DNA from: a virus
Lineage: Duplodnaviria > Caudoviricetes
Reading direction: 5' to 3' (one strand)
DNA length: 64,000 bases
IMG/VR virus record: IMGVR_UViG_3300013121_000005
Location: 1 to 64,000 of that record
Under the pieces are notes generated by a model. That model saw only the letters and a list, made by a program, of their open reading frames with translations, was not told where the DNA came from and did no database searches. This document shows, piece after piece, positions 134 to 34,188 of the stretch. Every line of letters starts with the position of its first letter. Position 1 is the first letter of the stretch. The translations under genes were made by a program, and so were the position numbers.

Positions 134-607
134 ATGCAAGTTGAGTTGTCATTCTATGGAGGCTGGCCAATCACCCCTTCTCGTAAGTGGAAGGGGGAGG
201 GCGCTCTTACTTGTCCCAAGTGCAAGAGCCAACGGATTTCCCTAACCGTGGAACGAGGGGCCTTCGGGACTGGCCCCGGCAACCGTTGGCGTATGGGTGA
301 CCAAGGGGGCCGGGAACTCGCTCTGTGCCAAGATTGCGGCAACAAGGGCTATCACATGGGAATCCCCAAAGCTGGTAGCCTTCAGGAGGGCTCGTTGGTA
401 GCCTTCTCAGGTTGTCGTTGCACCTTTAGAGTTGCAGGTCGAGACGCCAACCACCCCTTGCATGTGGTTTTCACTCAGGTGAGCCACTGTAAGACTCGTG
501 CGTGTAATCTTGCTGCGGGGCAAGAACTTTGGCTCTTTGAGGATGCCCCCATCGCAGGGGTGCCAGGAAAGCACTCCTTCCTTCTCCTGGGGTCGGATGG
601 GGGGTAG
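134..607 (+). CDS. hypothetical Cys-rich (Zn-binding) protein
   Basis: 157 aa ORF with CPKC/CQDC pairs. Confidence 0.5.
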   Translation: MQVELSFYGGWPITPSRKWKGEGALTCPKCKSQRISLTVERGAFGTGPGNRWRMGDQGGRELALCQDCGNKGYHMGIPKAGSLQEGSLVAFSGCRCTFRVAGRDANHPLHVVFTQVSHCKTRACNLAAGQELWLFEDAPIAGVPGKHSFLLLGSDGG

Positions 608-681
608 CCCCTGAACCCTCTCAATTTTCCGTAGGGATATCCTACCTTTACAGAAAAGTGATCGACCTTGCATTTTTTCCC

Positions 682-709
682 TTGCCAAGGTCCCCTAGGG
701 GGTTATACT
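682..709 (+). promoter_or_regulatory. sigma70-like promoter for the large ncRNA
   Basis: TTGCCA-16 nt-TATACT. Confidence 0.6.
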
Positions 710-715
710 GCCCCT

Positions 716-1425
716 CGTTGTTGATGCGGCACTGCACCGGAATCTCCGGTCGGGGCGAACACAACTCACGGCTGGGCGAAAGTTTAGTCGTGAAAGCTTG
801 GGTCAAGCCCCCAATTCGTTGGGGATAGGGTCCAGGCAATCTCGACTCCTTAAAGGGGCTCGGGGGTGTCGAGGGGACGTAAGGAACCTCGAACGGTGTA
901 ATCTTGGAACGTTTTTACGTTACGGGGTTATTTCGTGGTGGTGAGAGCCACTAGCTCACTGGGACCTCCTGAGGGAGGTGAGGTGCGAGGGGACGCAAGA
1001 AACCTCGCTAGTATGGGTGAAAAGCCTATCAAGGACTTCTTGAGAGAGATGCTCCAGGTTAGGCAGTCTATACTACCTAGACGAGAGTTTAGGGCTAATA
1101 AGCTACCGAAAGGTAGCCGAGATGGTCGGCGGGTGACCTAGAGTTGGAGCCTTAGGAAACTAGGGAAGTAGCTCTAGGGAGCTGGGAGCCTGAAAAGGCT
1201 TGCGGATTTCCCGCATAGAGATAGCGGAACATCTTGGCCAAAAACTAAGAAAGTGGTTGTCTCTAAAGTGTCGTGTCGCTTGTCAAGCTAACCCTTGGCA
1301 ACCCCAACCTGAACCTGCGCAAGCAGGTGGGGTGGTCTCTGAAAAATGGGGCCAAACTCAGGACGGAGCCGTGAAGCCGAAAGGTTTCACGGCTTTCGTG
1401 ATTTATGCGCCTGAGTCAGCATAAA
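716..1425 (+). ncRNA. large structured ncRNA (GOLLD/ROOL-like size class, family unassigned)
   Basis: No credible ORF; many GNRA hairpins, long-range helices and a 3' pseudoknot. Confidence 0.65.
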
Positions 1426-1453
1426 ATGGGCCAAGTTGCGCAGGTCTCTGTAG

Positions 1454-1726
1454 ATGCGTAAGGTAGTACGCATGAAATCCGAACCTAAGACCAAGAAGAA
1501 GGCTCGCCGTAGCCCTGTCCCTAAGGGGCAGGTAACTTTGACCCCGCAACAGAAGTACATTGCTAGGCTCGAAGCCGAAGCCAAGAAAGCGGGGGGCTCT
1601 CTTGGTCATCTAGCGTCTGCTGCAAAAATGCGGCCTGACGACTTCTTTTCTCTAAACCCAGAGACTCAATGGGCCATCGACAAAAGTCTTGGCATCCTTG
1701 ATTGGAACGGGGACTGGAAGAGTTAA
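1454..1726 (+). CDS. hypothetical basic protein
   Basis: 90 aa ORF; start may be ATG 1472. Confidence 0.55.
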   Translation: MRKVVRMKSEPKTKKKARRSPVPKGQVTLTPQQKYIARLEAEAKKAGGSLGHLASAAKMRPDDFFSLNPETQWAIDKSLGILDWNGDWKS

Positions 1727-1830
1727 TTTCCCCCAAGTGGAGGCGCTTCCCGGTGTAATAGAGAGCTGACCCGCATAAAGCCCCAATTTCGGGGCGTGCG
1801 TTTGGCCCATAACGGGCATGGAGGGTCATC

Positions 1831-3495
1831 ATGGCTAGTAAGAGTTTCTTCAGTCAAAAGGGCACGACTGTTCCGACGGCAACGGCAACAAACTACTCGG
1901 GTAAGCCAGCCTACAAGCTCTCGTCGAAGTACGCACTGGCGCAACTCGCCGTGACCGGCTGCTTCAACCAGACCTTCTACACGAGTGGCGAGGACCAGCT
2001 CCAGCAGGTTCTTGCACTCGCGAGGGAGTGTGAGCCCGAGTTCGTGGCGAAAGTGGCGATTTACGCCCAAGAGTCCGGCTTCATGAAGGATATGCCTGCG
2101 GCTCTCATGGTCTACCTGACCACGGTAGACTTGGCTGTCGCTCGGAAGGCATTCCCGAGGGTCATCCGCAACGGTAAGATGCTCCGTAACTTCGCTCAGA
2201 TCCTTCGGTCCGGAGCGTTTGGGCGTCACAACCTAAGCGCGAAGGGAATCCAAAAGCTGATCCAGGGGTGGTTCGATGCCCGGACCGAGGACGAACTCTT
2301 CCGAATGTCGGTTGGAAACAACCCATCTTTCGGGGACGTCATCAAGATGGCCCGTGTTACTCCGAAAAGCAAGGAGAGGTCGGCTCTTTACGCTTACTTC
2401 ATCGGGAAGACGGCAGCTCGATTCGGGACGGAAGTCTTCCCGATCGCAGATGTCCTACCTGAGCGGGTGAAGGCGTACGAAGAGTTCCTCAAGAATCCGC
2501 ACCCAACGGAGGAGATCCCGGATGTGCCTCTAGAGATGGCGCTGGGGCTTCAGCTCTCCATTGAGGGATGGAGGACGGTTGCTCGTAGGGCAAGCTGGTT
2601 CCAGACGTTCCGGACGATGAACACCTTTGCTAGACACGGGGTTCTCTCGGATCCGGAAATGGTCGAGTTCCTCTCTAATCGCCTCAGGAACCCAGACTTG
2701 ATCCGCAAGGCTCAAGTCTTCCCGTACCAAATCCTCATGGCCTACAAGGCTATCGTGGAAGGTCAGACCTCTTTCGGTAAGAAGGGGGCTAACGATGGCG
2801 ACAACTATGGCGATCTAGTCAAGATCGCAGGGGCTCTCCAGGATGCCTTGGAGTTTTCTTGTGAAAACATCCCGACTTTGGAAGGTCAGGTAGTCATTTG
2901 TCCGGACGTGTCCGGATCGATGTCGTCTCCTGTCACGGGTAATCGGATCAACCCGAAGACCGGCAAGGTGGAGAGGCATACAACGAAGGTTTCTTGCGTT
3001 GAGGTAGCGGGGCTGATGAGTGCAGCCATTTTGCGGAAAAACTCGCAGGCTCGGGTCATCCCCTTCGATACGGAAGCTTACTCCAGCTTCCCCCTCAACC
3101 CAAGGGATAGTATCCTAACGAATGCCCAAAAGTTGGGTGCACTCAGAGGAGGGGGTACAGATTGCTCCTGTCCGCTCAAGTACCTCAACAAGGCGAGGGC
3201 CAAGGCTGACGTGGTGATCTTCATCTCGGACTACGAGTCTTGGGGCGGGGCCTACGGGGCATCTCGTGGGACTCCCATGATGGAGGAGTGGGGTAAGTTC
3301 CACTCCCGTAACCCGGGAGCGAAGTTGATCTGCATCGATCTCACCCCCCATGGGACGACGCAGACCCCGAACACGCCTAACATCCTACATGTAGGTGGGT
3401 TCTCCGACAAGGTGTTCGAGGTTGTCACGAGCTTCGCTAATGGCAAGCCCGATAAGGCTCACTGGACGAAGGTCATTGAAGACGTCGAGCTGTAA
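1831..3495 (+). CDS. rsr: Ro60/Rsr-like TROVE-domain RNA-binding protein with C-terminal VWA domain
   Basis: ALAQLAVTGCFNQTFY, GFMKDMPA, NGKMLRNF, PYQIL, MIDAS DVSGSM, GGTDCS, ISDYESW, GGFSD; GGAGG RBS. Confidence 0.93.
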   Translation: MASKSFFSQKGTTVPTATATNYSGKPAYKLSSKYALAQLAVTGCFNQTFYTSGEDQLQQVLALARECEPEFVAKVAIYAQESGFMKDMPAALMVYLTTVDLAVARKAFPRVIRNGKMLRNFAQILRSGAFGRHNLSAKGIQKLIQGWFDARTEDELFRMSVGNNPSFGDVIKMARVTPKSKERSALYAYFIGKTAARFGTEVFPIADVLPERVKAYEEFLKNPHPTEEIPDVPLEMALGLQLSIEGWRTVARRASWFQTFRTMNTFARHGVLSDPEMVEFLSNRLRNPDLIRKAQVFPYQILMAYKAIVEGQTSFGKKGANDGDNYGDLVKIAGALQDALEFSCENIPTLEGQVVICPDVSGSMSSPVTGNRINPKTGKVERHTTKVSCVEVAGLMSAAILRKNSQARVIPFDTEAYSSFPLNPRDSILTNAQKLGALRGGGTDCSCPLKYLNKARAKADVVIFISDYESWGGAYGASRGTPMMEEWGKFHSRNPGAKLICIDLTPHGTTQTPNTPNILHVGGFSDKVFEVVTSFANGKPDKAHWTKVIEDVEL

Positions 3496-25339: not shown

Positions 25340-25402
25340 AGATCGAATGCTACACAGGACTACATCCGATTAATGCATGTCTTGTGCACTACTTGTCGAT
25401 CT
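25340..25402 (+). ncRNA. Y RNA-like #1 (minimal)
   Basis: AGATC-GAATG-N11-TACA...CTTGTC-GATCT. Confidence 0.8.
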
Positions 25403-25405
25403 TTT

Positions 25406-25477
25406 GCTCCCTTAGACTACTGGCTAGGTCGGCGCCCTTTCAAGGCGTAGGAACGGGATCGATACCCGTAGGGAGTA
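25406..25477 (+). tRNA. tRNA-Glu(TTC)
   Basis: Cloverleaf, T-loop ATCGATA. Confidence 0.85.
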
Positions 25478-25680
25478 CTGGGTGAGGTTAGAAACGGCGG
25501 GGTAGGTGGAGTTCGCACCTATCTGACACAGACCTCCTAGCTAGGGGGTAAAGTCTGAGACCAATATGGGATAGACCTCATCCAACTTGTTGAGGTGTGA
25601 TTCAGCAGAGGGTCTGTTGGGTCACAACGGGTGTCGAGAACTCAACCGGCTGCTGGGGCCGTACCCGTACCAGCACTTTT

Positions 25681-25751
25681 GCGGGTATTACTCGAAGGTC
25701 GAGTGTCTGCCTTCCAAGCAGAATGTGAGGGTTCGATTCCCTCTATCCGCT
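25681..25751 (+). tRNA. tRNA-Gly(TCC)
   Basis: Cloverleaf. Confidence 0.9.
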
Positions 25752-25792
25752 CCGTGGTGAATAGGCTCATTCTTTTGCTTCTGGGGGTTCCA

Positions 25793-25957
25793 ATGATCTG
25801 CATGTACTGCCTGGGGTGCTCGTTCTGTTCTGATCGCGAAGAGTCCCTCGCTGAGAAGAGAGAGCGTGTCCGAAAGGAAGATGCCGCCATGCGAGAGCAT
25901 GGCCTCCCCACCCTCAGTGTGAAGATGAAGGAGTTTTTCATTAAGCCCAGAACATAA
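25793..25957 (+). CDS. small Cys-rich hypothetical protein
   Basis: MICMYCLGCSFC...; 54 aa. Confidence 0.45.
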   Translation: MICMYCLGCSFCSDREESLAEKRERVRKEDAAMREHGLPTLSVKMKEFFIKPRT

Positions 25958-25969
25958 CCCCTGACTTAT

Positions 25970-26042
25970 GCCAAAGTAGCTCAAATGGTAGAGCAGTGGA
26001 CTGAAAATCCGCGTGTAGTTGGTTCGATCCCAACCTTTGGCA
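25970..26042 (+). tRNA. tRNA-Phe(GAA)
   Basis: Cloverleaf. Confidence 0.92.
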
Positions 26043-26043
26043 C

Positions 26044-26185
26044 TGCGATGAATGCTTGGAGGACTACATCGACCTGAGGCTTACGAGCCTGGTTCCTTGC
26101 GGGGGCAGATCCCGCCTTGACGGCGCAAGCCTTCAAGACCGGCACTTAGAAGGGAACCTGCTGTCCTCTACTTCTTGTCGTCGCA
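26044..26185 (+). ncRNA. Y RNA-like #2 (non-tRNA cargo)
   Basis: TGCGAT-GAATG-N10-TACA...CTTGTC-GTCGCA. Confidence 0.8.
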
Positions 26186-26189
26186 AACT

Positions 26190-26327
26190 TTCGTGGTGAA
26201 TGTCGAATGGACTACATGCAATTCAAGCCGGTAACGTTGGTTCAAATCCAACCTCCTGCTCCAACTTATGCGGGGGTCGTCTAGAGGTAGGACACCGTAG
26301 GGTCTTTTCACTTCTTGTCATCACGGA
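26190..26327 (+). ncRNA. yrlA: Y RNA #3, YrlA-type (permuted tRNA mimic)
   Basis: Y stem enclosing T-arm, loop-closed acceptor stem, then D-arm. Confidence 0.85.
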
Positions 26328-26332
26328 ATTTT

Positions 26333-26352
26333 CGGGCGTATAGCCTAGTGGT
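26333..26352 (+). pseudogene. 5' tRNA fragment upstream of an HNH gene
   Basis: CGGGCGTATAGCCTAGTGGT, then breaks off. Confidence 0.45.
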
Positions 26353-26378
26353 TCTGATAATCTTTCGATGGGTTTATC

Positions 26379-26795
26379 ATGACTGTGAAGGATCAAAAAT
26401 ACTGCCCACGGTGCGATACCACCAAGCCTGAGAGCCAGTTTCACAAGCGGGGGGCGTTCCTGATGGGGTACTGCAAGCCCTGCCAGTGTTCGTACGTGGT
26501 CCAGACCAAGAAGAAGCTGTTGGCTCATTTGCGAGGCATCGTCCGGTCAGCCAAGGACAACCCATGTTCCGACTGCGGGGAGCGACACCCGTACTGGGCG
26601 ATGGACTTCGACCACCGAGACCCCGCTCTCAAGAAGTTTGAGATCGGCCAGCTCGGAAGAATTTGTCCCTCTGAGGAGCGTCTCAGAGGAGAGCTTGCAA
26701 AGTGCGATCTCGTATGCGCCCTTTGCCACCGCTACCGAACCAACGGGCAGCGGAGATCACTGGCACGTAGTTCAACGGTTAGAACGCACGTCTGA
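26379..26795 (+). CDS. HNH endonuclease (paralog 2)
   Basis: CSDCGE...MDFDH...KCDLVCALCH; stop lies inside tRNA-Ile. Confidence 0.85.
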   Translation: MTVKDQKYCPRCDTTKPESQFHKRGAFLMGYCKPCQCSYVVQTKKKLLAHLRGIVRSAKDNPCSDCGERHPYWAMDFDHRDPALKKFEIGQLGRICPSEERLRGELAKCDLVCALCHRYRTNGQRRSLARSSTVRTHV

Positions 26796-26837
26796 TAAGC
26801 GTGAGGTTTGGAGGTTCGATTCCTCTCGTGCCAACCA
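26761..26837 (+). tRNA. tRNA-Ile(GAT)
   Basis: Cloverleaf, CCA. Confidence 0.9.
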
Positions 26838-26897
26838 GGTGTTGTTCAGCGGGTCCTCGGGGAGCTTGGAGCCCCGGTGATCACTGAAAAATACCTG

Positions 26898-27038
26898 AAT
26901 ACCGAATGTCAAAGGGACTACAGCCCCCGCCATGAGCCCCGGAGTCGTCTCCGAGGTTCATGGGGGGCTTCGGTTGTGGTCGCCTTCAAAAAGCGAATCG
27001 CCTCCGAGCGAAAGTCTCTGAGGTTCCTTGTCGGTATT
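26898..27038 (+). ncRNA. Y RNA-like #4 (non-tRNA cargo)
   Basis: AATACC-GAATG-N10-TACA...CTTGTC-GGTATT. Confidence 0.8.
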
Positions 27039-27040
27039 TT

Positions 27041-27111
27041 TGGGGAATCGTCTAAAGGCAGGACGCGGGATTTTGATTCCCGCTATCTAGGTTCGACTCC
27101 TAGTTCCCCAG
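27041..27111 (+). tRNA. tRNA-Gln(TTG)
   Basis: Cloverleaf. Confidence 0.9.
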
Positions 27112-27117
27112 CTACAT

Positions 27118-27191
27118 AGAGGTAACAGTCATGGTGACGGCGGAGCCTCCAAAACTCTAGCGAGCGGGTTCGATTCCTGCTACCTCTGCCA
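27118..27191 (+). tRNA. tRNA-Trp(CCA)
   Basis: CT-CCA-AA loop, CCA end. Confidence 0.8.
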
Positions 27192-27192
27192 C

Positions 27193-27268
27193 GGGTCTCA
27201 AGCAATTGTGGTCAATGCGCTGGTCTGAAAAGCCAGACAACTCGGTTCGATCCCGAGGGGGCCCACCA
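27193..27268 (+). tRNA. tRNA-Phe(GAA)
   Basis: Cloverleaf, CCA. Confidence 0.88.
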
Positions 27269-27426
27269 CGACGAATGCTGTCGAGGACTACACCGCACAT
27301 AACGGGGTGGTCGCGAGGTTCGACTCCTCGCTCCCGTAGCCAAGCCTTCAATTTGTTGAGGGCTTGGCTACGGGATAGCTCAGTGGTAGAGCACCTAAAA
27401 GTTGTCTTCGCGATCCTTGTCGTCGT
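27268..27426 (+). ncRNA. yrlA: Y RNA #5, YrlA-type with extended acceptor stem
   Basis: ACGAC-GAATG...GGTTCGACTCC...long hairpin...TAGCTCAGTGGTAGAGC...CTTGTC-GTCGT. Confidence 0.88.
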
Positions 27427-27429
27427 AAT

Positions 27430-27506
27430 CGGGGTGTGGCTCAATCTGGTAGAGCATTCCGTTCGGGACGGAAAGGTTGGACGTTCAAATCGTCTCACCC
27501 CGACCA
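27430..27506 (+). tRNA. tRNA-Pro(CGG)
   Basis: Cloverleaf, CCA. Confidence 0.9.
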
Positions 27507-27743
27507 GGGAAAGAGCAGAACATCGGGTAGCTCCGGTGTTTGTCGGGCGGTGAGTGCTCACCGACAGCTTGGACCCTGACCACTTTCAATGCCTCTGGAG
27601 CCAGATGGTCTGGCGAGGCAAAGGACCTCCTTGGAGGAAAGGCCCCTGAGACCCCGGGGGAGCTTGGAAGAGGGGCTTGCTCTCCCGCTCCGTGAGGCCG
27701 CCAAGGGCCGTCGGACGGGAGGGCGGCCCCTAGGGGTCACTTT

Positions 27744-27826
27744 ATCACTGTGGAGAAATTGGAAGCCTCGCAGCAGCCCCGCTGTGCTCCTTTGGGGGCG
27801 TCCAGGTTCGAGTCCTGGCGGTGACA
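27744..27826 (+). ncRNA. Leu-type tRNA-like RNA without a canonical anticodon loop
   Basis: Leu-like D- and V-arms, 6-nt loop AGCCCC. Confidence 0.65.
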
Positions 27827-27881
27827 CTTTTTTCGGCTGGTGGTTGTGTAATTGGTGTATCGTTCGTTGATCGTTCGTTGA

Positions 27882-27966
27882 GTTCAGATGGCGGAATGGC
27901 AGACGCAGTGGATTTAAAATCCACCGCTCCTCGTGGGCGTGAAGGGTTCGAGTCCCTCTCTGAACA
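27882..27966 (+). tRNA. tRNA-Leu(TAA)
   Basis: Class II cloverleaf. Confidence 0.9.
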
Positions 27967-28136
27967 CAAAGAGGTGTGCGCACACCTCTTAGAGCCGAAA
28001 AGTCCCAATTAGGAGCTTGGCTGCAAACTTGAGGTCACTTGGTAGTGTGGAGGGCTTAGATCCTCCTCTTTGGTTCGATCCCAGTAAGGGCCTCAAATTT
28101 TTGCTGAGGTGTGTGCAACACGTTTTGGCTCGATTT

Positions 28137-28223
28137 GCTCAGATGGCGGAACTAGGCAGACGCGGCGGCTTCAAACTCCGTTGTCCTTGTGGCGTGAGGG
28201 TTCGATTCCCTCTCTGAGCACCA
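28137..28223 (+). tRNA. tRNA-Leu(CAA)
   Basis: Class II cloverleaf, CCA. Confidence 0.85.
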
Positions 28224-28227
28224 ACTA

Positions 28228-28336
28228 GATCGAATGCATGAAGGGTTTACATCCTGCCGATTAGGAAGGCGTGGTTCGATTCCACCCTAAACCAAAGGGG
28301 GCTGGTGCCTCCGTAACTCTTCACTACTTGTCGATC
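28228..28336 (+). ncRNA. Y RNA-like #6 (T-arm remnant)
   Basis: GATC-GAATG-N11-TACA...GGTTCGATTCC...CTTGTC-GATC. Confidence 0.8.
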
Positions 28337-28347
28337 AAGTTGAATCT

Positions 28348-28422
28348 CGGGGTGTAGCTTAGCCTGGCAAAAGTGCTCGTCTGGGGGACGAGAGATCACA
28401 GGTTCAAATCCTGTCATCCCGA
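28348..28422 (+). tRNA. tRNA-Pro(GGG)
   Basis: Cloverleaf. Confidence 0.9.
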
Positions 28423-28428
28423 CTGTAT

Positions 28429-28500
28429 GGGCTGGTAGTTCAGTGGTAGAATGCTTCTTTGACACGGAAGAGATCGGCGGTTCGACCCCGCCCCAGCTCA
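28429..28500 (+). tRNA. tRNA-Val(GAC)
   Basis: Cloverleaf. Confidence 0.9.
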
Positions 28501-28502
28501 CT

Positions 28503-28722
28503 GTCTCGAATGCTGATTAGGAGTACATATCCATAAAGGCCCTAAGGTAGCGATGTTCCCGCGAGGGACTAGCGACGGCACCAATCCCAGACCCCAAGCG
28601 GTAATACGCCGGGTCAGAGACTCTATGAGTCAAAGGTGCGGGACGAGCGGTGGCCATCCCACAAGGAACCACAATGCGTCGGCGGAGCGAAAGCTCCTTC
28701 TCTTAATCGAACTTGTCGAGAT
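28503..28722 (+). ncRNA. Y RNA-like #7 (largest, ~170-nt non-tRNA cargo)
   Basis: GTCTC-GAATG-N11-TACA...CTTGTC-GAGAT. Confidence 0.8.
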
Positions 28723-28730
28723 TTTTCAAT

Positions 28731-28812
28731 GCGCAAATGGCGGAATGGCAGACGCACTAGCTTGAGGTGCTAGCGGTTAACAACCATGGGGGTTCAATTC
28801 CCCCTTTGCGCA
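28731..28812 (+). tRNA. tRNA-Leu(GAG)
   Basis: Class II cloverleaf. Confidence 0.9.
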
Positions 28813-28813
28813 C

Positions 28814-28877
28814 TACTACTGAATGCAGTTGAGAGTACATTTCGGTACATGCCTCTCAACTATTCTTGTCAGTGGTA
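28814..28877 (+). ncRNA. Y RNA-like #8 (minimal)
   Basis: TACTACT-GAATG-N10-TACA...CTTGTC-AGTGGTA. Confidence 0.8.
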
Positions 28878-28881
28878 TCTT

Positions 28882-28964
28882 GCTCAAGTGGCGGAACTAG
28901 GCAGACGCAGTTGGTTCAGAACCAGCCGGGTAAAACCGTAGGGGTTCGATTCCCCTCTTGAGCA
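28882..28964 (+). tRNA. tRNA-Leu(CAG)
   Basis: Class II cloverleaf. Confidence 0.9.
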
Positions 28965-28965
28965 C

Positions 28966-29115
28966 TCACCGTGAATGATGCTTTGGACTACATGTAAAAT
29001 TCAGTCTTTGAGGGTTCGAGTCCCTCTCTGGCTCTTAGGAGTCAGGTGGTGGAATTGGCATACACACTGAAAGCCGAAAGGCATGCGTCCTTGGGCAAAA
29101 AACTTGTCATGGTGA
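28966..29115 (+). ncRNA. yrlA: Y RNA #9, YrlA-type (Leu-like D-loop)
   Basis: T-arm GAGGGTTCGAGTCCCTC, closed acceptor, D-arm GTGGAATTGGCATACAC inside the Y stem. Confidence 0.85.
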
Positions 29116-29119
29116 ATTT

Positions 29120-29193
29120 CGGAGCGTAGCTCAGTCTGGTAGAGTACATGCTTTGGGTGCATGGTGTCGCTGGTTCGATTCCAGTCGCTCCGA
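29120..29193 (+). tRNA. tRNA-Pro(TGG)
   Basis: Cloverleaf. Confidence 0.92.
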
Positions 29194-29228
29194 CTAGGAT
29201 GATATGGAAAGCCTGTCATCCGTTTTTT

Positions 29229-29315
29229 GGATGGTAAACTGGCCAGGGGCCGGGCCTACCTCGAAAGTAGTGCGCACCTCGAAAGGGGTGTGGGGTTCGA
29301 GACCTCTACCTTCCG
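29229..29315 (+). tRNA. tRNA-Ser(CGA), 8/4 fold
   Basis: 8-bp acceptor, 4-bp T-stem, long D-stem. Confidence 0.8.
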
Positions 29316-29324
29316 CTGGTTATT

Positions 29325-29411
29325 GGAGGATGATCCTAACAGGGTTAGGGCCTGCCTGGAAAGCAGTGCGCACCTCGAAAGGGGTGTGGGGTTCGACTCC
29401 CTCGTCTTCCG
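29325..29411 (+). tRNA. tRNA-Ser(GGA), 8/4 fold
   Basis: As above; V-arm identical to that of Ser(CGA). Confidence 0.82.
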
Positions 29412-29936
29412 CTACTGGTGTTCCCAACAGGGGATACAGCGGGGTTCGTAGATATCCAACCCCCCAACCAGTACCTTTTCGTTGCTGAGTACTTTCCGGT
29501 GGGTCCTTGTGGCGCTTTGTCCGCAAATTGAACACCGGGCTTGGAGACGGCGAACTTCGTTCGCCATGCTGATAAATTCTGGCATGGGTCCGAATGGTGC
29601 CCCAAAACAGTCTAAGTCTAGGCCCGTAAGAATGACGGTTGTGCCGTGGGCAAGTAACTTACCTACAACTTCGATAGCTTGAGGCTCAAGGAACTGAGCC
29701 TCATCGATTGCTACAGTTCCCCCTGGCCATACTTGGTCCAGTCGCGGGGATACCCAACTAGCAAAGACTTTACGCCCTGCATGGGAGATTACGTTGGTGG
29801 TATTGGAGTGTCGGGTATCGATGGTGGGCTTGTAGACTCGTACTACATCTTTTGCAGCTAGTACTAATTCAATTAGCCCTTCCGTTTTACCTGCGAACAT
29901 AGGACCACATAGGACCGTGAGCTTGCCGAGGGTCAT
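29412..29936 (-). CDS. tdk: thymidine kinase
   Basis: GPMFAGKT, IDEAQF, GLDLD, C-terminal Zn Cys. Confidence 0.93.
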   Translation of the reverse strand: MTLGKLTVLCGPMFAGKTEGLIELVLAAKDVVRVYKPTIDTRHSNTTNVISHAGRKVFASWVSPRLDQVWPGGTVAIDEAQFLEPQAIEVVGKLLAHGTTVILTGLDLDCFGAPFGPMPEFISMANEVRRLQARCSICGQSATRTHRKVLSNEKVLVGGLDIYEPRCIPCWEHQ

Positions 29937-29964
29937 CGAGGGTCCTTGGGTATCAGTAGATAAT

Positions 29965-30054
29965 GGAAGTAGAATCGGCCATGGGGCCGAGCCTGTTTGC
30001 TAAACAGTGTCGATCGGCGATGAGTCGATTGGGGTTCGAGTCCTCCTGCTTCCG
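29965..30054 (+). tRNA. tRNA-Ser(GCT), 8/4 fold
   Basis: GGAAGTAG/CTGCTTCC acceptor, 4-bp T-stem. Confidence 0.82.
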
Positions 30055-30058
30055 CTAT

Positions 30059-30145
30059 GGGTGGGTTGTCTTTTCCGGTCTTGTCATCGCTCTTTCGGGG
30101 GTCGATGAATGTTGGTGAGGACTACATAAGCAATCGGTACCACCC
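30059..30145 (+). ncRNA. Y RNA-like #10, circularly permuted
   Basis: CTTGTC-ATCG precedes CGAT-GAATG-N11-TACA, joined by a TTCG hairpin. Confidence 0.72.
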
Positions 30146-30179
30146 TGGGTCGGCCTTCGGGCCGACCCCCGATTCCTAT

Positions 30180-30252
30180 GGTGAGTATCGCCTTCTGGAG
30201 AGGGCGCCTGGTTGTGGCCCAGGTAAGGCGGGTTCGATCCCCGTTGCTCACC
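30180..30252 (+). tRNA. tRNA-His(GTG)
   Basis: G-1/C73, cloverleaf. Confidence 0.9.
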
Positions 30253-30254
30253 CC

Positions 30255-30381
30255 GCAGTAAATGCTGATAAGAGTACAACCCAATCATAAGTGCGAGTTC
30301 AAGTCCCGCTCAGTACGTAAGTGCTGATAGCTCAAGTGGTAGAGCATTGATCCCAAACCTCTTGTCGTCTCTTGTTACTGC
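30255..30381 (+). ncRNA. yrlA: Y RNA #11, YrlA-type
   Basis: GCAGT-AAATG...CTTGTT-ACTGC (compensatory A-U pair); T-arm, GTAA-closed acceptor, D-arm. Confidence 0.82.
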
Positions 30382-30384
30382 AAT

Positions 30385-30466
30385 GCCCTCGTAGCCTAGT
30401 GGATAAGGCGCGAGTTTCCTAAACTCGTGACGAGAGTCATCGTAGGTTCGAGTCCTACCGAGGGTG
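30385..30466 (+). tRNA. tRNA-Arg(CCT) with long variable arm
   Basis: V-arm TGAC-GAGA-GTCA. Confidence 0.85.
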
Positions 30467-30736
30467 CTAGAGTATTCTCTTGTGTAGCTTTTGAAGGGCA
30501 GCCGCTTCAATCTGTCGAACTCGTTCTCGGGTAACCCCAAGAATAGCTCCGACTTCCTCCAAAGTCATTCCTCCTTCATCTGCTACGTCTAGTACGCAGG
30601 AGTAGGGGGTCCCTTCGAGGAAGTACCTGCATTGGGGAAATGGGCATGGTCTGGATTCATTGGGTCCTCCGGGTAGGCAGTCTCCGCGAACCTGAGGGAG
30701 GATAGGTAAGTGCATAGCTTGGGTCACGATTTCCAC
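30467..30736 (-). CDS. sigma-70 region 4 HTH protein
   Basis: MTLEEVGAILGVTRERVRQIE. Confidence 0.8.
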   Translation of the reverse strand: MEIVTQAMHLPILPQVRGDCLPGGPNESRPCPFPQCRYFLEGTPYSCVLDVADEGGMTLEEVGAILGVTRERVRQIEAAALQKLHKRIL

Positions 30737-30780
30737 CTTTACACCAGGTGGGTGACCTTACGAGTGAGGTAGGGTGATTT

Positions 30781-30852
30781 GGGGATGTAGGCATCAGGTG
30801 AGGCCGCTGGCTTGTCACGCCAGTGAGGCGGGTTCGAGTCCCGTCGTCCCCG
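30781..30852 (+). tRNA. tRNA-Asp(GTC)
   Basis: Cloverleaf. Confidence 0.88.
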
Positions 30853-30907
30853 CTACTATTGAGTTGAATTGGGGTTCCCCTTAGCTTAGGGGGTTTCAGT
30901 GTGTTTT

Positions 30908-30979
30908 GCCCTCGTACGCATCTGGTGAGGCGGCTCCACTGTCTATGGAGCGAGGTCGGTTCAATTCCGGTCGGGGGCG
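30908..30979 (+). tRNA. tRNA-Asp(GTC)
   Basis: Cloverleaf. Confidence 0.85.
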
Positions 30980-31000
30980 CTACGGTAATCTTGTCCTAGG

Positions 31001-31501
31001 GTGTTCATGGGTAAAGCCATGGCAGACTCGGATAATCGAAATGGTGGTAACTGCACCGGCAGCAAACCTAGGTGTACTTCTGGGGAAGACTTAGATAATG
31101 AGGTTAGTCCACAGATAGAGGAAGACCCTTTCTTGAAGTGGGCAGAGGGGGACCCTGTTACGACGGAGGACTTACGCGAGGGTTTGGTAACTTGTTCAAA
31201 GTACGTGCAGGCATCCCTGCAAAGTACAATCAAACTCTCTAGTGAGTTACGAAGGATCCTTCCATCGATCCAGGTGATGTCGGATCAGATCAAGGTTCTT
31301 GGTCCAAAAGTGGAGTCTAATGCTCGGTCTGTTGACCAGTTGGACCAAGAGTTGGTCAGTATCAGGCGAGACCTTCATGAGGTTCGTAAGGCAGTACAGG
31401 GTTTGCAAGTAGACATGGAGTATGTTAAAGGTCGCGTAGACCTTCTTCCTGGAATCGCATCCTTGTTAGGTGAGGTTATTGGGCGTTTGCCTAGTAAGTA
31501 G
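31001..31501 (+). CDS. hypothetical coiled-coil protein
   Basis: Heptad repeats; start uncertain. Confidence 0.6.
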   Translation: MFMGKAMADSDNRNGGNCTGSKPRCTSGEDLDNEVSPQIEEDPFLKWAEGDPVTTEDLREGLVTCSKYVQASLQSTIKLSSELRRILPSIQVMSDQIKVLGPKVESNARSVDQLDQELVSIRRDLHEVRKAVQGLQVDMEYVKGRVDLLPGIASLLGEVIGRLPSK

Positions 31502-31512
31502 TAGTGTTACAA

Positions 31513-31585
31513 GGGGCTGTAGCTCATCTGGGAGAGCGCCTGGTTTGCATCCAGGAGGTAAGGGGTTCGAGTCCCCTCAGCTCCA
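31513..31585 (+). tRNA. tRNA-Ala(TGC)
   Basis: G3:U70, cloverleaf. Confidence 0.93.
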
Positions 31586-31602
31586 CTGCGGGGATTGGTT
31601 AT

Positions 31603-31676
31603 TCGGGTGTCGTTCAAGGGTAGGACCGGAGACTTTGAATCTTCAGATCGTGGTTCGATTCCACGCGCCCGAACCA
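31603..31676 (+). tRNA. tRNA-Gln(TTG)
   Basis: Cloverleaf, CCA. Confidence 0.88.
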
Positions 31677-31769
31677 CTAGACTTCTTCTTGTAGGTGCTG
31701 TAATGTACGGCACGCCGGTTGAGAGCCTGGTTGGGGAAACTTCGGTAACGGTCTAAATCGTGGTGAAAT

Positions 31770-31842
31770 GGGGCTGTAGCTCATCTGGGAGAGCGCTTCC
31801 ATGGCATGGAAGAGGTAAGGGGTTCGAGTCCCCTCAGCTCCA
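31770..31842 (+). tRNA. tRNA-Ala(GGC)
   Basis: Cloverleaf; body nearly identical to Ala(TGC). Confidence 0.93.
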
Positions 31843-31984
31843 CTGGGGTCAAATGCTTGTGGGGTCTACATTCAAGGTAGAAAACAGACTCCGCTGCCAC
31901 TTGTTGGCCCTAATCTGCGTCTCCAGCACAACGGAGGGCGACACCTGCCAAAGTGGTGTGGCCGCTGGGGAGAGTCCCGCCAAT

Positions 31985-32057
31985 GGGGCCGTAGCTCATC
32001 TGGGAGAGCGCTGCCTTCGCAAGGCAGAGGTGGAGGGTTCGAGTCCCTTCGGCTCCA
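31985..32057 (+). tRNA. tRNA-Ala(CGC)
   Basis: Cloverleaf. Confidence 0.92.
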
Positions 32058-32061
32058 CAAC

Positions 32062-32180
32062 GGGCGTGTAAGCTCAAGTTCCTCGGGGTTCGCTCACGTG
32101 GTTGATGGCGCCGTCAGCACGAGGGAGGGTAGAGCTAGGGCCGAAAGCCCTGTGTGCTGGTTCGAGTCCGGTCACGTCCA
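32062..32180 (+). ncRNA. tRNA-like RNA with ~48-nt D-loop insertion and 5-nt anticodon loop
   Basis: GGGCGTG/CACGTCC acceptor, canonical T-arm, AGGGC-CGAAA-GCCCT. Confidence 0.72.
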
Positions 32181-32197
32181 CTGGTGTAAGGGGTCCT

Positions 32198-32473
32198 ATG
32201 ACTCTCGATCAAGTTCAGACGGTTTTAGTAGCCTATGAAGAGCGCCTTCGTGAGCTGGAAGCGGATCCCAAGAGGGCCGACACAAGCCTCACACGACCTT
32301 CTGAGGCTCAGGCTCTTAGGCATCTGGCTTGGATGTGTCAACAGATGCGTGAGGTTCTTAAGTCGGACTCCCCGAATTCTGAGAAAGTTGCAAGGTGGCT
32401 TGGATTTGTCCAAGGGGTCTCTTGGATGACGGGGCTTTTTTCGATTGATGAAATGCGGGATCACAACCGCTGA
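32198..32473 (+). CDS. hypothetical phage protein
   Basis: HLAWMC...RWLGFVQG; GGTGTA 9 nt upstream. Confidence 0.7.
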   Translation: MTLDQVQTVLVAYEERLRELEADPKRADTSLTRPSEAQALRHLAWMCQQMREVLKSDSPNSEKVARWLGFVQGVSWMTGLFSIDEMRDHNR

Positions 32474-32482
32474 AATGAGTTT

Positions 32483-32555
32483 GGGGATGTTGGGGAATTG
32501 GAACCCCACCGAGTTGTCTACTCGATTTATGCGGGTTCGAGTCCCGTCATTCCCG
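32483..32555 (+). tRNA. tRNA-Asp(GTC)
   Basis: Cloverleaf. Confidence 0.82.
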
Positions 32556-32573
32556 CTGTGTCGTGTGTTCAAT

Positions 32574-32647
32574 CGGAGTGTGGCGAAGTCTGGTATCGCA
32601 CTGCGTTCGGGACGCAGGGTTCGGAGGTTCAAATCCTCTCACTCCGA
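32574..32647 (+). tRNA. tRNA-Pro(CGG)
   Basis: Cloverleaf. Confidence 0.9.
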
Positions 32648-32796
32648 CTGGTTCTGGTGGGGCAGTTGACTGCCAGAACCTACTTTCTGCGCGAGGGCGG
32701 CGGGAAGTTTGATGGGGAGCCTCTGCACCACATAATTGTCAGATGGATGTAAGCTCCCAAGTCCTCCGGTTCTGGTTTTTATACCTGAACCGTTTT

Positions 32797-32865
32797 GGGC
32801 TTGTGTAGAAGGCTACCATCTTCCCTCGCACGGAAGGTGTACGGGAGCGTTACCCGTCAGGTCCA
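32797..32865 (+). tRNA. tRNA-Ala(CGC), atypical T-loop
   Basis: G3:U70; T-loop AGCGTTA; reduced D-arm. Confidence 0.65.
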
Positions 32866-32900
32866 CTAGGAGTAAGTAGTAGGTTTGTTGACTTAATTTC

Positions 32901-32973
32901 GCCCACTTAGCTCACTTGGTAGAGCAGCGCCCTTGTAATGCGCAGGTAGTCGGTTCGATTCCGACAGTGGGCT
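32901..32973 (+). tRNA. tRNA-Thr(TGT)
   Basis: Cloverleaf. Confidence 0.9.
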
Positions 32974-32979
32974 CTGTTT

Positions 32980-33050
32980 GCGGGTATCGTCTAGAGGCAA
33001 GGCCCGAGCCTTCCAAGCTCGTGACGAGGGTTCGACTCCCTCTACCCGCT
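32980..33050 (+). tRNA. tRNA-Gly(TCC)
   Basis: Cloverleaf. Confidence 0.9.
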
Positions 33051-33078
33051 CTGTTGGTAAACCTCTTGTGGTTTTACC

Positions 33079-33606
33079 ATGCTTGTGAAGACCTGCAACC
33101 CGTGTGGTCGAACCCTACCTGAGACTGAGTTTCACTGGCGCAGCAAGGCCAAAGGGCTTCGGATCTCTTGGTGTCGTGAGTGTGCAAGCAAGAAGTCGAA
33201 GGCGCACTACAAGACGAACAAGTCAATGTACTTGCGGAAGACCGCGAAGCACACCAAGCGGATCCGCGCAGAGCTAGCGAGCAAGATTCTCGATTACCTC
33301 AAGGTACACTCGTGCGTTGACTGCGGAGAGGCTGATCCCGTGGTGCTCCACTTCGACCATGTACGGGGGAGGAAGGCGTTCAACATCGCGAAGGCGTCTG
33401 CGAAGGGTTTTGCTTGGGCGCATGTTGAGGAGGAGATTCAGAAGTGTGATGTTCGGTGTGCCAACTGTCACATGAGAAAGACGGCTAAGGACTTCGGTTG
33501 GCGCAAGCTACTTTTTGCCCGTGAGGCTCCTGTGGAGGAGCGCCATCTTGGTAGGATGGAGTCAGAGGGTTCGACTCCCTTCGCGGGCTCTGATCCGAAC
33601 GAATGA
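33079..33606 (+). CDS. HNH endonuclease (paralog 3)
   Basis: CVDCGEADPVVLHFDH...KCDVRCANCH; reads through tRNA-Thr. Confidence 0.85.
   Translation: MLVKTCNPCGRTLPETEFHWRSKAKGLRISWCRECASKKSKAHYKTNKSMYLRKTAKHTKRIRAELASKILDYLKVHSCVDCGEADPVVLHFDHVRGRKAFNIAKASAKGFAWAHVEEEIQKCDVRCANCHMRKTAKDFGWRKLLFAREAPVEERHLGRMESEGSTPFAGSDPNE
33517..33589 (+). tRNA. tRNA-Thr(GGT)
   Basis: Cloverleaf. Confidence 0.85.
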
Positions 33607-33664
33607 CCGTGGGGCTACATTGACTTGTAGGTTCGAGTCCCGGATCCTCTTGTGGTTCGGGTCA
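33591..33664 (+). ncRNA. Y RNA-like #12 (short, divergent)
   Basis: TGATCCGAAC-GAATG-N10-TACA...CTTGTG-GTTCGGGTCA. Confidence 0.68.
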
Positions 33665-33667
33665 GGT

Positions 33668-34021
33668 ATGATCTATGAGTACCGTGCTAAAGCTTTCCGG
33701 GTTGTGGATGGAGATACAGTTTGGCTTGAGGTGGACCTTGGTTTCCATGTCCGAGTTACCTTGGAGTTTCGCCTTGAGGGGTTGAATACGCCAGAGGTAC
33801 TTGGTCCACAGAAAACAGCCGGGTTGGCAGCTAAGGACGAATTGTCACGACTTCTTGGTTTGGGTGACCTTCGAGTGGTGTCTAGTAAGACAGAGAAGTA
33901 TGGGCGCTACCTTGCAACGTTGTATGTGACCCCTACAAATCAACCAGAGATTAACGTCAACCAGGCACTTCTAGATGGCGGTTTCGCAAAACCTTATCTA
34001 GGTTTAGGGCCGAAGTTGTAG
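33668..34021 (+). CDS. thermonuclease (SNase) family protein
   Basis: RVVDGDT, RLEGLNTPE, KYGRYLA. Confidence 0.9.
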   Translation: MIYEYRAKAFRVVDGDTVWLEVDLGFHVRVTLEFRLEGLNTPEVLGPQKTAGLAAKDELSRLLGLGDLRVVSSKTEKYGRYLATLYVTPTNQPEINVNQALLDGGFAKPYLGLGPKL

Positions 34022-34115
34022 GTCTTCAAGGTACCAATGGTGGTACCTTGGGGTGGTGGACACGGCGGGTAACCGTCGCCCCCGAAGGGTCGGAGTAAAA
34101 CCCGACCCTTCATTT

Positions 34116-34187: not shown

Positions 34188-34188
34188 C

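What the first reader, a model, noticed from the sequence alone, without database searches (positions are those of the whole stretch)
716..1425. ~700-nt structured ncRNA upstream of Ro60
Seen: its own promoter (682-709), no credible ORF, many GNRA-type hairpins (GCTACC-GAAA-GGTAGC, CCTGC-GCAA-GCAGG), a duplicated motif GAGGGGACG(T/C)AAG(G/A)AACCTC (871-890, 987-1006), long-range pairings 725-733/1267-1275 and 795-808/1278-1289, and a 3' pseudoknot (1356-1362/1410-1416 with 1402-1408/1419-1425). Known: GOLLD and ROOL are giant ncRNAs of this size linked to phages and tRNA clusters. I cannot assign a family by eye; it may be new.
Basis: partly seen in the sequence, partly recalled or inferred. 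Interest (0 to 1): 0.75.

Follow-up and report, generated by a model that had tools for sequence, protein, structure and literature searches.

The report
New large folded jumbo-phage RNA
The gene-free stretch upstream of this giant phage's Ro60 gene encodes a real, roughly 690-base, intricately folded non-coding RNA with its own promoter and terminator; it matches no catalogued RNA family, was found in only one other phage, and its job is unknown.

Summary
The finding holds. Window 716-1404 (+), not 716-1425, is a self-contained RNA gene in a 363-kb IMG/VR jumbo-phage record.

- Fold: far more stable than shuffles on the + strand (z = -15.3) than on the - strand (z = -2.9), and more stable than 80 sampled 690-nt segments of the same genome.
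- Homolog: one full-length copy (68% identical) lies in a gene-free gap of a related phage contig, L004.
- Transcription signals: the sigma70-type promoter and the terminator hairpin are conserved in both.
- Non-coding: indels are mostly 1-2 nt and substitutions show no codon periodicity.
- Covariation: a fold predicted from the window alone is kept in L004. Where both bases of a pair changed, 36 pairs are kept and 14 broken; on the reverse strand it is 15 and 15.
- Loops: 11 of 19 hairpin loops are GNRA tetraloops, all retained in L004.
- Known families: no Rfam 15 family matches either copy, even at E up to 10.

The long-range closing helix is compatible with both copies but not proven.

The family has only two distinct sequences. 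It is absent from the closest RNA-less relative and from 19 other Ro60-carrying viral records. This scan's index holds no look-alike DNA, although it has noted other, unrelated large jumbo-phage RNAs. Function is unknown. My best guess is a trans-acting folded scaffold RNA, GOLLD/ROOL-like in kind but not a member of either family.

The parts
650..681 (+). A/T-rich stretch upstream of the -35 hexamer (AAAAGTGA ... CATTTTTT), shared with L004; left part of the cassette, possibly an UP-like element
   Evidence: Alignment A8: the window and L004 are alike here. The RNA-less relative L143 diverges from L004 right after the stop codon of the upstream gene.
682..709 (+). Sigma70-type promoter TTGCCA-16 nt-TATACT; predicted transcription start near 716
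   Evidence: 10 of 12 matches. The same hexamers and spacing occur at L004 4422-4449 with a diverged spacer. It is one of only 7 such sites in the 363-kb genome.
716..1404 (+). The structured non-coding RNA, about 690 nt
   Evidence: z = -15.3 on + against -2.9 on -. Full-length homolog at L004 4457-5151, nhmmer E = 7e-83. 42 of 209 consensus pairs are doubly compensatory against 2-6 in slid controls. The non-circular test gives 36 kept and 14 broken. Non-coding.
722..733 (+). 5' strand of the candidate long-range closing helix, pairing with 1267-1278
   Evidence: 11 of 11 pairs kept in both sequences, with 1 double and 4 single changes. p = 0.72 in the window and 0.06 in L004, where a structure containing it is 3.2 kcal/mol above the MFE. 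Not settled.
766..793 (+). Hairpin capped by a GAAA tetraloop
   Evidence: 11 pairs, 5 with changes on both sides; loop CGAAAG is identical in both copies.
796..837 (+). Two-tier hairpin (796-803/830-837 and 809-815/818-824)
Evidence: 15 pairs, 2 doubly compensatory and 3 changed on one side.
840..983 (+). Central multi-branch domain closed by a 24-bp helix (840-867/954-983), with a variable arm at 893-950
   Evidence: Pairing probability 0.86-0.93 in both sequences folded independently; 2 double and 3 single changes in the closing helix. L004 carries an 8-nt insertion in the variable arm.
869..892 (+). Twin motif, copy A: a 6-bp stem (UCGAGG/CCUCGA in the window), a GGA/GAA internal loop, and a C-G pair closing a GUAA tetraloop
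   Evidence: The stem has 2 compensatory changes in L004. The tetraloop stays GNRA (GUAA becomes GCAA) and the rest of the loop is unchanged.
985..1008 (+). Twin motif, copy B (GCAA tetraloop)
   Evidence: One compensatory change in the stem; the GCAA tetraloop and most loop positions are conserved in L004.
1009..1117 (+). Three hairpin elements: 1009-1075 (inner GAGA loop), 1076-1093 (GAGA loop) and 1102-1117 (GAAA loop)
   Evidence: The helices carry 4+1+2, 2 and 0 doubly compensatory pairs; all loops stay GNRA in L004.
1137..1265 (+). Three hairpin elements: 1137-1178 (GAAA, GCAA in L004), 1182-1205 (GAAA) and 1216-1265
   Evidence: 2, 2 and 6 doubly compensatory pairs; pairing probability for 1216-1265 is 0.96 and 0.80.
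1280..1354 (+). 3' domain hairpins: 1280-1301, 1302-1332 (GCAA loop) and 1333-1354
   Evidence: 2, 1 and 1 doubly compensatory pairs.
1351..1404 (+). A 54-nt block identical in both phages; it holds the terminator-like hairpin 1358-1401 (GAAA loop, internal mismatch and 2-nt bulge) and the U-rich tail
   Evidence: Longest identical run is 54 nt, P about 2e-7 at 68% identity. Terminator called at 1365-1396 and at L004 5112-5143. Homology ends just after it.
1454..1726 (+). Context: 90-aa ORF with no family match, between the RNA and Ro60; not present in L004, which has an unrelated 238-aa gene there
1831..3495 (+). Context: phage Ro60 (TROVE plus vWA) gene
   Evidence: Pfam vWA_Ro60 at E = 1.2e-17; thousands of homologs.

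Best explanation
Window 716-1404 (+) is a stand-alone gene for a roughly 690-nt, highly structured non-coding RNA of a family not in Rfam.

Shown: it is carried on a discrete, moron-like cassette (short A/T-rich upstream tract, sigma70-type promoter, RNA, intrinsic-terminator-like hairpin). In two related jumbo phages the cassette sits between different genes, one gene upstream of Ro60.

Inferred: the host RNA polymerase transcribes it early in infection and stops at the 3' hairpin. The transcript folds into about 15 hairpin or multi-branch elements around a 145-nt central domain, possibly closed by a long-range 5'/3' helix. The eleven conserved GNRA tetraloops and the two copies of a conserved loop motif probably make the tertiary or intermolecular contacts that hold a compact particle together.

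Most likely it acts in trans as a folded scaffold or decoy RNA, as GOLLD and ROOL are thought to, within this phage's RNA-handling programme (Ro60, Y-like RNAs, about 39 tRNAs, tmRNA). It is unlikely to act as a message or a leader. The RNA gene, its boundaries and its secondary structure are shown. The timing, the tertiary role of the loops and the trans-acting scaffold function are inferred.
For: - Fold stability and strand bias: z = -15.3 against -2.9. Its MFE of -315 kcal/mol is below all 80 sampled 690-nt segments of the same genome (mean -241, sd 22, minimum -292), and its GC content is average.
- Homolog: full-length copy at 68% identity in a gene-free gap of L004.
- Transcription signals: promoter and terminator are conserved at equivalent positions.
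- Non-coding.
- Covariation: 42 of 209 pairs doubly compensatory against 2-6 in slid controls and 20.8 in shuffles. With the window-only fold tested on L004, 36 pairs are kept and 14 broken on the + strand, against 15 and 15 on the - strand. Independent folds share 135 pairs on + and 37 on -.
- G-U pairs: 42 in the window and 38 in L004 out of 209, which explains the strand bias.
- Loops: 11 of 19 hairpin loops are GNRA and all are retained, some by switching within the class.
- Cassette boundaries: defined against the RNA-less relatives L143 and L005. The genes on either side differ between the two phages.
- Other: no antisense target in the phage genome. No known family matches.
Against: - There are only two distinct sequences, so no statistical covariation test such as R-scape is possible and the long-range architecture is unresolved.
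- No conserved pseudoknot was found. The solved or well-studied ornate RNAs are rich in pseudoknots.
- The element is dispensable: the closest relatives lack it.
- The terminator's U-tract is interrupted (UUUCGUGAUUU), so read-through into the downstream genes is possible.
- Nothing here tests the scaffold or decoy function.
Confidence: 0.55

Rival explanations
1. It is the RNA partner or a dedicated substrate of the phage Ro60. In this reading a giant Y-like RNA uses its long, bulged and perfectly conserved 3' hairpin, or its terminal helix, to bind the Ro60 ring and tether it to other factors.
For: In both phages that carry it, the RNA lies on the same strand within about 1 kb upstream of Ro60, although the gene in between and the upstream gene differ. 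The 3' hairpin is a long stem with a mismatch and a 2-nt bulge, and it is 100% conserved over 54 nt, P about 2e-7, as expected for a protein-binding site. Y RNAs are normally encoded next to Ro60 (PMC4201824). L004 also carries an RlaP RNA-repair-type gene two genes upstream.
Against: Y RNAs are 80-130 nt with a terminal stem formed by the 5' and 3' ends (PMC4201824); this RNA is about 690 nt. No Rfam Y RNA model matches at E up to 10. The phage's own Y-like signature, GAAUG-N9-12-UACA, occurs 13 times in the tRNA array (0.97 expected) and never in this RNA. Ro60 genes 53-69% identical, in L005, L007, L009 and 19 viral records, have no such RNA.
Confidence: 0.15
2. It is one primary transcript that is cut into several independent small structured RNAs, that is, a non-coding operon of modules and not one large folded molecule.
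For: The local hairpin elements are robust in both sequences, whereas the long-range helices that would make it a single fold are not favoured in L004's own ensemble (p = 0.06, and 0.00 for 734-739/1130-1134). No pseudoknot links the domains. Another agent in this scan described a modular RNA operon beside a different jumbo-phage Ro60 (e1-5325897, unchecked).
Against: The two copies are colinear over the whole length with no module gained, lost or rearranged. No internal promoter, terminator, tRNA or known processing signal was detected. The closing helix keeps 11 of 11 pairs, including one compensatory change. The density of GNRA loops points to tertiary packing of a single particle.
Confidence: 0.12
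3. It is a cis-acting leader. In this reading a very large 5' UTR uses its conserved terminator as a regulated attenuator controlling read-through into the downstream ORF and Ro60.
For: It has the same orientation as the downstream genes and lies 40-50 nt ahead of the next start codon in both phages. No sigma70-type promoter is detected between the terminator and Ro60. The terminator has an interrupted U-tract and its sequence is invariant.
Against: The downstream gene differs between the two phages (a 90-aa ORF against an unrelated 238-aa gene). The 238-aa/Ro60 module exists without the RNA in L005 and L009 and keeps its own upstream sequence in L004 downstream of the terminator. No alternative anti-terminator pairing is conserved. 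Known leaders are several-fold smaller.
Confidence: 0.1
4. It is not a functional RNA: either a decayed protein-coding gene or an accidentally structured spacer.
For: Relatives carry a called gene of similar length (237-238 aa) just upstream of Ro60.
Against: tblastn of that protein and its neighbours against the window gives no hit. In L004 the RNA and the 238-aa gene are both present, side by side. Strand-specific compensatory evolution, retained GNRA loops and a conserved promoter and terminator are not expected from decaying or neutral DNA.
Confidence: 0.03

Closest known systems
GOLLD RNA (Rfam RF01998)
   Same: A large (over 600 nt), elaborately folded non-coding RNA encoded by a phage, with its own transcription signals and unknown function. 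The 3' part is more conserved than the 5' and central parts. The phage is rich in tRNA genes.
   Different: The Rfam model gives no match at E up to 10 for either copy. This RNA is shorter than typical GOLLD, which exceeds 800 nt. It lies 22 kb from the tRNA array, not beside it. No pseudoknots were detected. Oligomerisation is untested.
ROOL RNA (Rfam RF03087)
   Same: Similar size class (about 600-700 nt), phage-borne, multi-stem architecture, no identified protein partner, function unknown.
   Different: No match to the Rfam model. ROOL is described as having multiple pseudoknots and as often lying near tRNA islands; neither holds here.
Bacterial and phage Y RNAs (YrlA type; Chen et al. 2014, PMC4201824)
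   Same: Encoded close to, and on the same strand as, a Ro60 gene; contains a long bulged stem that is strictly conserved.
   Different: About 690 nt against 80-130 nt. There is no tRNA-like domain and no Rfam match. It lacks the GAAUG...UACA signature of the 13 Y-like modules that this phage carries in its tRNA array. Most related Ro60 loci have no such RNA.
Phage morons (autonomous promoter-gene-terminator cassettes inserted between phage genes; textbook concept from lambdoid phages)
   Same: A discrete unit with its own sigma70-type promoter and terminator, present or absent among close relatives and lying between different genes in different genomes.
   Different: The cargo is a large structured RNA, not a protein-coding gene.

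Membership tests
GOLLD (RF01998) | Match to the family covariance model | tested here: not met
   No hit at gathering score or at E up to 10 in window 500-1900 or L004 4350-5250.
GOLLD (RF01998) | Often adjacent to, or containing, tRNA genes | tested here: not met
   The nearest tRNA is at 23355, about 22 kb away. No tRNA is called in L004.
GOLLD / ROOL | RNA-only homo-oligomeric nanocage (cryo-EM, 10.1101/2024.12.08.627333) | not testable with these tools
   Needs purified RNA and cryo-EM, mass photometry or native gels.
ROOL (RF03087) | Match to the family covariance model | tested here: not met
   no hit.
ROOL (RF03087) | Multiple pseudoknots | tested here: inconclusive
   No complementarity of 5 bp or more is conserved in both copies among unpaired columns. 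Two sequences and one consensus fold cannot exclude pseudoknots.
OLE, HEARO, raiA, RNase P, group I/II introns, tmRNA, 6S, riboswitches, self-cleaving ribozymes (all Rfam 15 families) | Match to any of the 4227 covariance models | tested here: not met
   Only noise hits (9-17 bits, E from 0.11 to 9.6, far below gathering scores), and they differ between the two copies.
Y RNA / YrlA | Length 80-130 nt, terminal stem made by the 5' and 3' ends carrying the Ro60 site, large internal loop or tRNA-like domain (PMC4201824) | tested here: not met
   The length is about 690 nt. There is no Rfam Y RNA or tRNA hit inside it. The phage's Y-like signature is absent.
Y RNA / YrlA | Encoded next to Ro60 | tested here: met
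   426 nt upstream of Ro60 in the window, and about 850 nt upstream in L004.
Y RNA / YrlA | Physical binding to Ro60 | not testable with these tools
   Needs a gel-shift assay or co-immunoprecipitation.
Structured non-coding RNA gene (generic) | Conserved secondary structure with compensatory changes, on one strand, in non-coding sequence | tested here: met
   The limit is that only two sequences are available.
Structured non-coding RNA gene (generic) | Evidence of transcription | not tested
   Promoter and terminator are predicted and conserved.

The most novel reading that the evidence does not exclude
This is the founding member of a new class of giant phage RNAs that assemble, through their many GNRA loops and the twin loop motif, into a higher-order particle working with the phage Ro60 ring. 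That would be a viral RNA-quality-control or tRNA-handling machine built around a roughly 690-nt RNA in place of a 100-nt Y RNA.
Probability: 0.1. Interest if true: 0.85.

Novelty: new variant of a known kind. Interest (0 to 1): 0.58.

Why it matters
Large, intricately folded RNAs with no known function are rare. GOLLD, ROOL and OLE were recently shown to form unprecedented RNA-only assemblies, and each new class widens what natural RNA is known to build. This one is compact and unusually rich in GNRA tetraloops. It has clear 5' and 3' ends, so it can be transcribed in vitro directly for probing or cryo-EM. It also sits beside a phage Ro60 in a genome packed with tRNAs, a tmRNA and Y-like RNAs, which gives a concrete and testable link to viral RNA quality control. 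Its weaknesses are that only two natural variants are known and that no host or culture is available.

Tried and rejected
Homolog searches that found nothing beyond L004 (plus L146, a short contig from another sample that matches L004's promoter and first 80 nt or so of the RNA):
- blastn against GenBank phages, distant and near modes.
- IMG/VR scans with five patterns. All hits were chance matches, as nhmmer showed. L148 is a tandem-repeat region.
- One metagenome scan and one genome scan with a 17-mer from the invariant block: 64 and 37 loci, all chance.
- Covariance models R1-R3 on 28 loci, on 19 whole Ro60-bearing viral records of which six are complete, and on the phage's own genome.
- Contigs reached through Ro60 relatives and through both upstream-gene relatives: L005-L010, L118, L119, L143, L144, L147, L149. 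P0004's contig returned no DNA, and P0006 could not be fetched.

Other items:
- Weak model matches were set aside as generic hairpins or terminators: R3 at window 27282-27376 (24 bits), R2 at G004 29104-29218 (22.5 bits), and L128.
- Relatives cannot be drawn for a virus record.
- A decayed-gene origin was rejected.
- A boxB-like or 11-nt tetraloop-receptor reading of some hairpins was considered by eye and dropped, because the motifs are not kept in L004.
- An antisense-regulator role was rejected: only 13-14-nt chance matches in the genome.
- This scan's index holds no look-alike DNA.

Full report
**Where it is.** The window is the first 64 kb of a 363,484-bp IMG/VR virus record, estimated 76% complete. 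It is a jumbo phage whose window also carries 39 tRNA genes and a tmRNA. The finding lies between a 157-aa ORF with no Pfam match (134-607) and a 90-aa ORF (1454-1726), which is followed by a Ro60 gene (1831-3495; vWA_Ro60 at E = 1.2e-17).

- The promoter-like site TTGCCA-16 nt-TATACT is at 682-709.
- The 20-nt duplicated motif is at 871-890 and 987-1006: 2 matches, 0.00 expected.
- The named GNRA hairpins exist.
- As RNA, the + strand of 716-1425 folds to -325.6 kcal/mol against -248 ± 5 for dinucleotide shuffles (z = -15.3). The - strand gives z = -2.9.
- The 690-nt core (-315 kcal/mol) is more stable than every one of 80 sampled 690-nt segments (40 windows, both strands) of the same genome (mean -241, sd 22, minimum -292), and its GC is average (0.535 against 0.537).

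**A homolog.** Ro60 relatives in the large protein collection led to contig L004 (Logan, 31 kb, Ro60 73% identical). Positions 4444-5157 of L004 align with the window element end to end: blastn 69.5% identity, nhmmer E = 7e-83. In the trimmed alignment 468 of 688 aligned positions are identical. No gene is called in that gap of L004. A 1-kb contig from a different sample (L146) matches L004's promoter and first 80 nt or so of the RNA exactly.

**It is not coding.**
- Ten of the eleven indels between the copies are not multiples of three: 2, 2, 8, 1, 1, 1 and 6 nt in one row and 2, 2, 2 and 1 nt in the other.
- Substitutions fall evenly on the three phases (66, 72, 82). The neighbouring Ro60 gene is less diverged (76.8% identity) and shows the coding signature (105, 75, 200).
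- Short translated similarities hop between frames and strands.
- The 237-238-aa gene that precedes Ro60 in relatives has no tblastn match in the window. In L004 it coexists with the RNA. A decayed-gene origin is therefore excluded.

**Boundaries.** The -35 and -10 hexamers and their 16-nt spacing are conserved while the spacer sequence is not. About 65 nt upstream of the -35 hexamer are also similar. The RNA-less relative L143 is homologous to L004 only up to the stop codon of the upstream gene. At the 3' end, a 14-bp hairpin with a GAAA loop and a U-rich tail is called as a terminator at equivalent positions (1365-1396 and L004 5112-5143). Homology between the window and L004 stops at about 1404. 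From there L004 becomes homologous to the region upstream of the 238-aa gene in L005. The element is thus a discrete, moron-like cassette of promoter, RNA and terminator, lying between different genes in the two phages. Only seven sigma70-type sites with 10 or more of 12 matches exist in the whole 363-kb genome. Transcription by the host polymerase, probably early, is a reasonable inference.

**Conserved structure.** RNAalifold on the two copies gives 209 pairs, all standard in both, and 42 have changes on both sides. In controls, sliding the 3' partners by 1-3 columns leaves 2-6 such pairs, and shuffling gives 20.8 ± 3.3, with 0 of 500 shuffles reaching 42. That structure was derived from both sequences, so I repeated the test without circularity. 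I folded the window alone and asked what L004's substitutions do to those pairs.

| Test | + strand | - strand |
|---|---|---|
| Both bases changed: pairs kept / broken | 36 / 14 | 15 / 15 |
| Pairs shared by the two independently predicted folds | 135 of about 241 | 37 of about 200 |

(Both rows.) One fifth of the consensus pairs are G-U, 42 in the window and 38 in L004 out of 209, which explains the strand bias.

**Anatomy (coordinates).**
- A 5' region with a small hairpin.
- Hairpin 766-793 with a GAAA loop and 5 compensatory pairs.
- A two-tier hairpin at 796-837.
- A 145-nt central domain closed by a 24-bp helix (840-867/954-983). Its pairing probability is about 0.9 in each sequence alone, and it has a variable arm.
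- The twin motif hairpins at 869-892 and 985-1008.
- Eight further hairpin elements up to 1354.
- The terminator hairpin at 1358-1401.

Eleven of 19 hairpin loops are GNRA tetraloops (GAAA, GCAA, GUAA, GAGA). All eleven are GNRA in L004 too, with some switching within the class: GUAA to GCAA and GAAA to GCAA. The twin motif reads as a 6-bp stem, a GGA/GAA purine-rich internal loop, and a C-G pair closing a GYAA tetraloop. Its stems covary while most loop positions, including the tetraloop class, are conserved. This suggests a repeated docking or protein-binding element, which is an inference.

**What is not supported.**
- The 3' pseudoknot uses 1402-1425, which lies beyond the conserved RNA.
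- The long-range helix 722-733/1267-1278 keeps all 11 pairs in both copies (1 double and 4 single changes). Its probability is 0.72 in the window's ensemble but 0.06 in L004's, where a structure containing it is 3.2 kcal/mol above the MFE. An alternative partner for the 5' end (717-724 with 1295-1302) also fits both sequences.
- I found no conserved pseudoknot of 5 bp or more among unpaired columns.

Whether this is one globular fold or a string of domains is therefore not settled.

**An odd feature.** The last 54 nt (1351-1404) are identical in the two phages, although the RNA overall is 68% identical (P about 2e-7). A terminator that only had to be a hairpin could covary, so the sequence itself seems constrained. 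That could reflect a protein site, a tertiary contact or recent gene conversion.

**Comparison with known families.** Rfam 15 (4227 models) gives nothing at gathering scores in the window or in six related loci. At E up to 10 it gives only noise, which differs between the two copies. That excludes membership of GOLLD, ROOL, OLE, HEARO, RNase P, introns, Y RNA and the rest, as far as the models can see. The RNA shares the kind with GOLLD and ROOL: a large, ornate, phage-borne RNA of unknown function (10.1101/2024.12.08.627333). It is not next to tRNAs, and pseudoknots were not found. Against a Y-RNA reading, Y RNAs are 80-130 nt (PMC4201824). This phage's own Y-like signature, GAAUG-N9-12-UACA, occurs 13 times in the tRNA array (0.97 expected) and never here. 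That signature was a lead from another note of this scan (e1-5707515), and I checked only the pattern count. Full-text searches found no description of such an RNA.

**Distribution.** The family has two distinct sequences. It is absent from the following:
- the closest RNA-less relative, at both candidate positions (L005 and L143);
- other Ro60 relatives;
- 19 whole Ro60-bearing viral records, six of them complete;
- GenBank phages by blastn;
- every motif scan of IMG/VR, JGI metagenomes and GTDB genomes.

It is single-copy in its own genome. It is therefore a rare, dispensable accessory element. This scan's index has no look-alike DNA, though other agents have reported unrelated large RNAs in other jumbo phages, some beside Ro60 (unchecked).

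**How it probably works.** The evidence shows a separately transcribed, non-coding, strongly folded RNA on a mobile-looking cassette. From the density of conserved GNRA loops, the repeated loop motif, the lack of antisense targets and the different downstream genes, I infer a trans-acting folded scaffold or decoy RNA, with confidence about 0.55. The main rivals are:
- a Ro60 partner or substrate (0.15), supported by linkage to Ro60 in both phages and by the invariant bulged 3' hairpin;
- a processed multi-RNA transcript (0.12);
- a cis-acting attenuating leader (0.10).

**Verdict.** This is a genuine new RNA family, of a known general kind but not a member of any described family. Its interest is moderate to high, limited by its rarity, the two-sequence evidence base and the lack of any functional handle beyond its position next to Ro60.

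Noticed in passing
window 25345-36029 (+): The signature GAATG-N9-12-TACA occurs 13 times, all on the + strand inside the tRNA array (0.97 expected). This fits the Y-RNA-like modules reported by another note and makes them the more likely Ro60 partners.
   Followed up: partly
window 27282-27376 (+): The 5'-domain model R3 gives a 24-bit match inside one of those modules. The stretch contains a T-arm-like GGUUCGACUCC and a hairpin resembling 796-837 of the big RNA. It is probably generic but was not examined further.
   Followed up: partly
window 1351-1404 and L004 5098-5151: A 54-nt run is identical between two RNAs that are otherwise 68% identical, and it covers the whole terminator hairpin. 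The sequence itself appears constrained, not only the structure, and I have no explanation.
   Followed up: partly
G000:C1 about 320001-320690 (+), outside the window: This sampled 690-nt segment folds to -292 kcal/mol on the + strand against -247 on the - strand, the most stable of 40 sampled windows. It may be another structured RNA.
   Followed up: no
whole G000 (363 kb): Only seven sigma70-type promoter matches with 10 or more of 12 positions occur in the genome (near 682, 44234, 76319, 134889, 230554, 251263 and 285442). Most genes presumably use phage-specific promoters.
   Followed up: no
L004 2658-3815 and L143 3850-5019: An RlaP-family (PF10127, RNA-repair-associated nucleotidyltransferase) gene lies two genes upstream of the RNA cassette in L004. 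In L143 the same RlaP/186-aa pair is followed by other genes. CoaE and NUDIX genes are nearby.
   Followed up: no
L009 3858-4637 and L010 1757-2536: A gene with a faint LAGLIDADG homing-endonuclease hit sits upstream of the Ro60 module in another relative, so this neighbourhood is a hotspot for insertions.
   Followed up: no
L148 (IMGVR_UViG_3300042888_004050) 1-1143: A tandem-repeat region in which a GGGACGCAAGGAAC-like word recurs dozens of times at spacings that are multiples of 18 nt. It is probably a collagen-like coding repeat and is unrelated to the RNA.
   Followed up: partly
G004:C1:29104-29218 (-) (locus L140): The 3'-domain model R2 gives a 22.5-bit match (E = 7.8e-4 per genome) in a 114-kb viral contig. 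It is likely a similar terminator hairpin and was not inspected.
   Followed up: no
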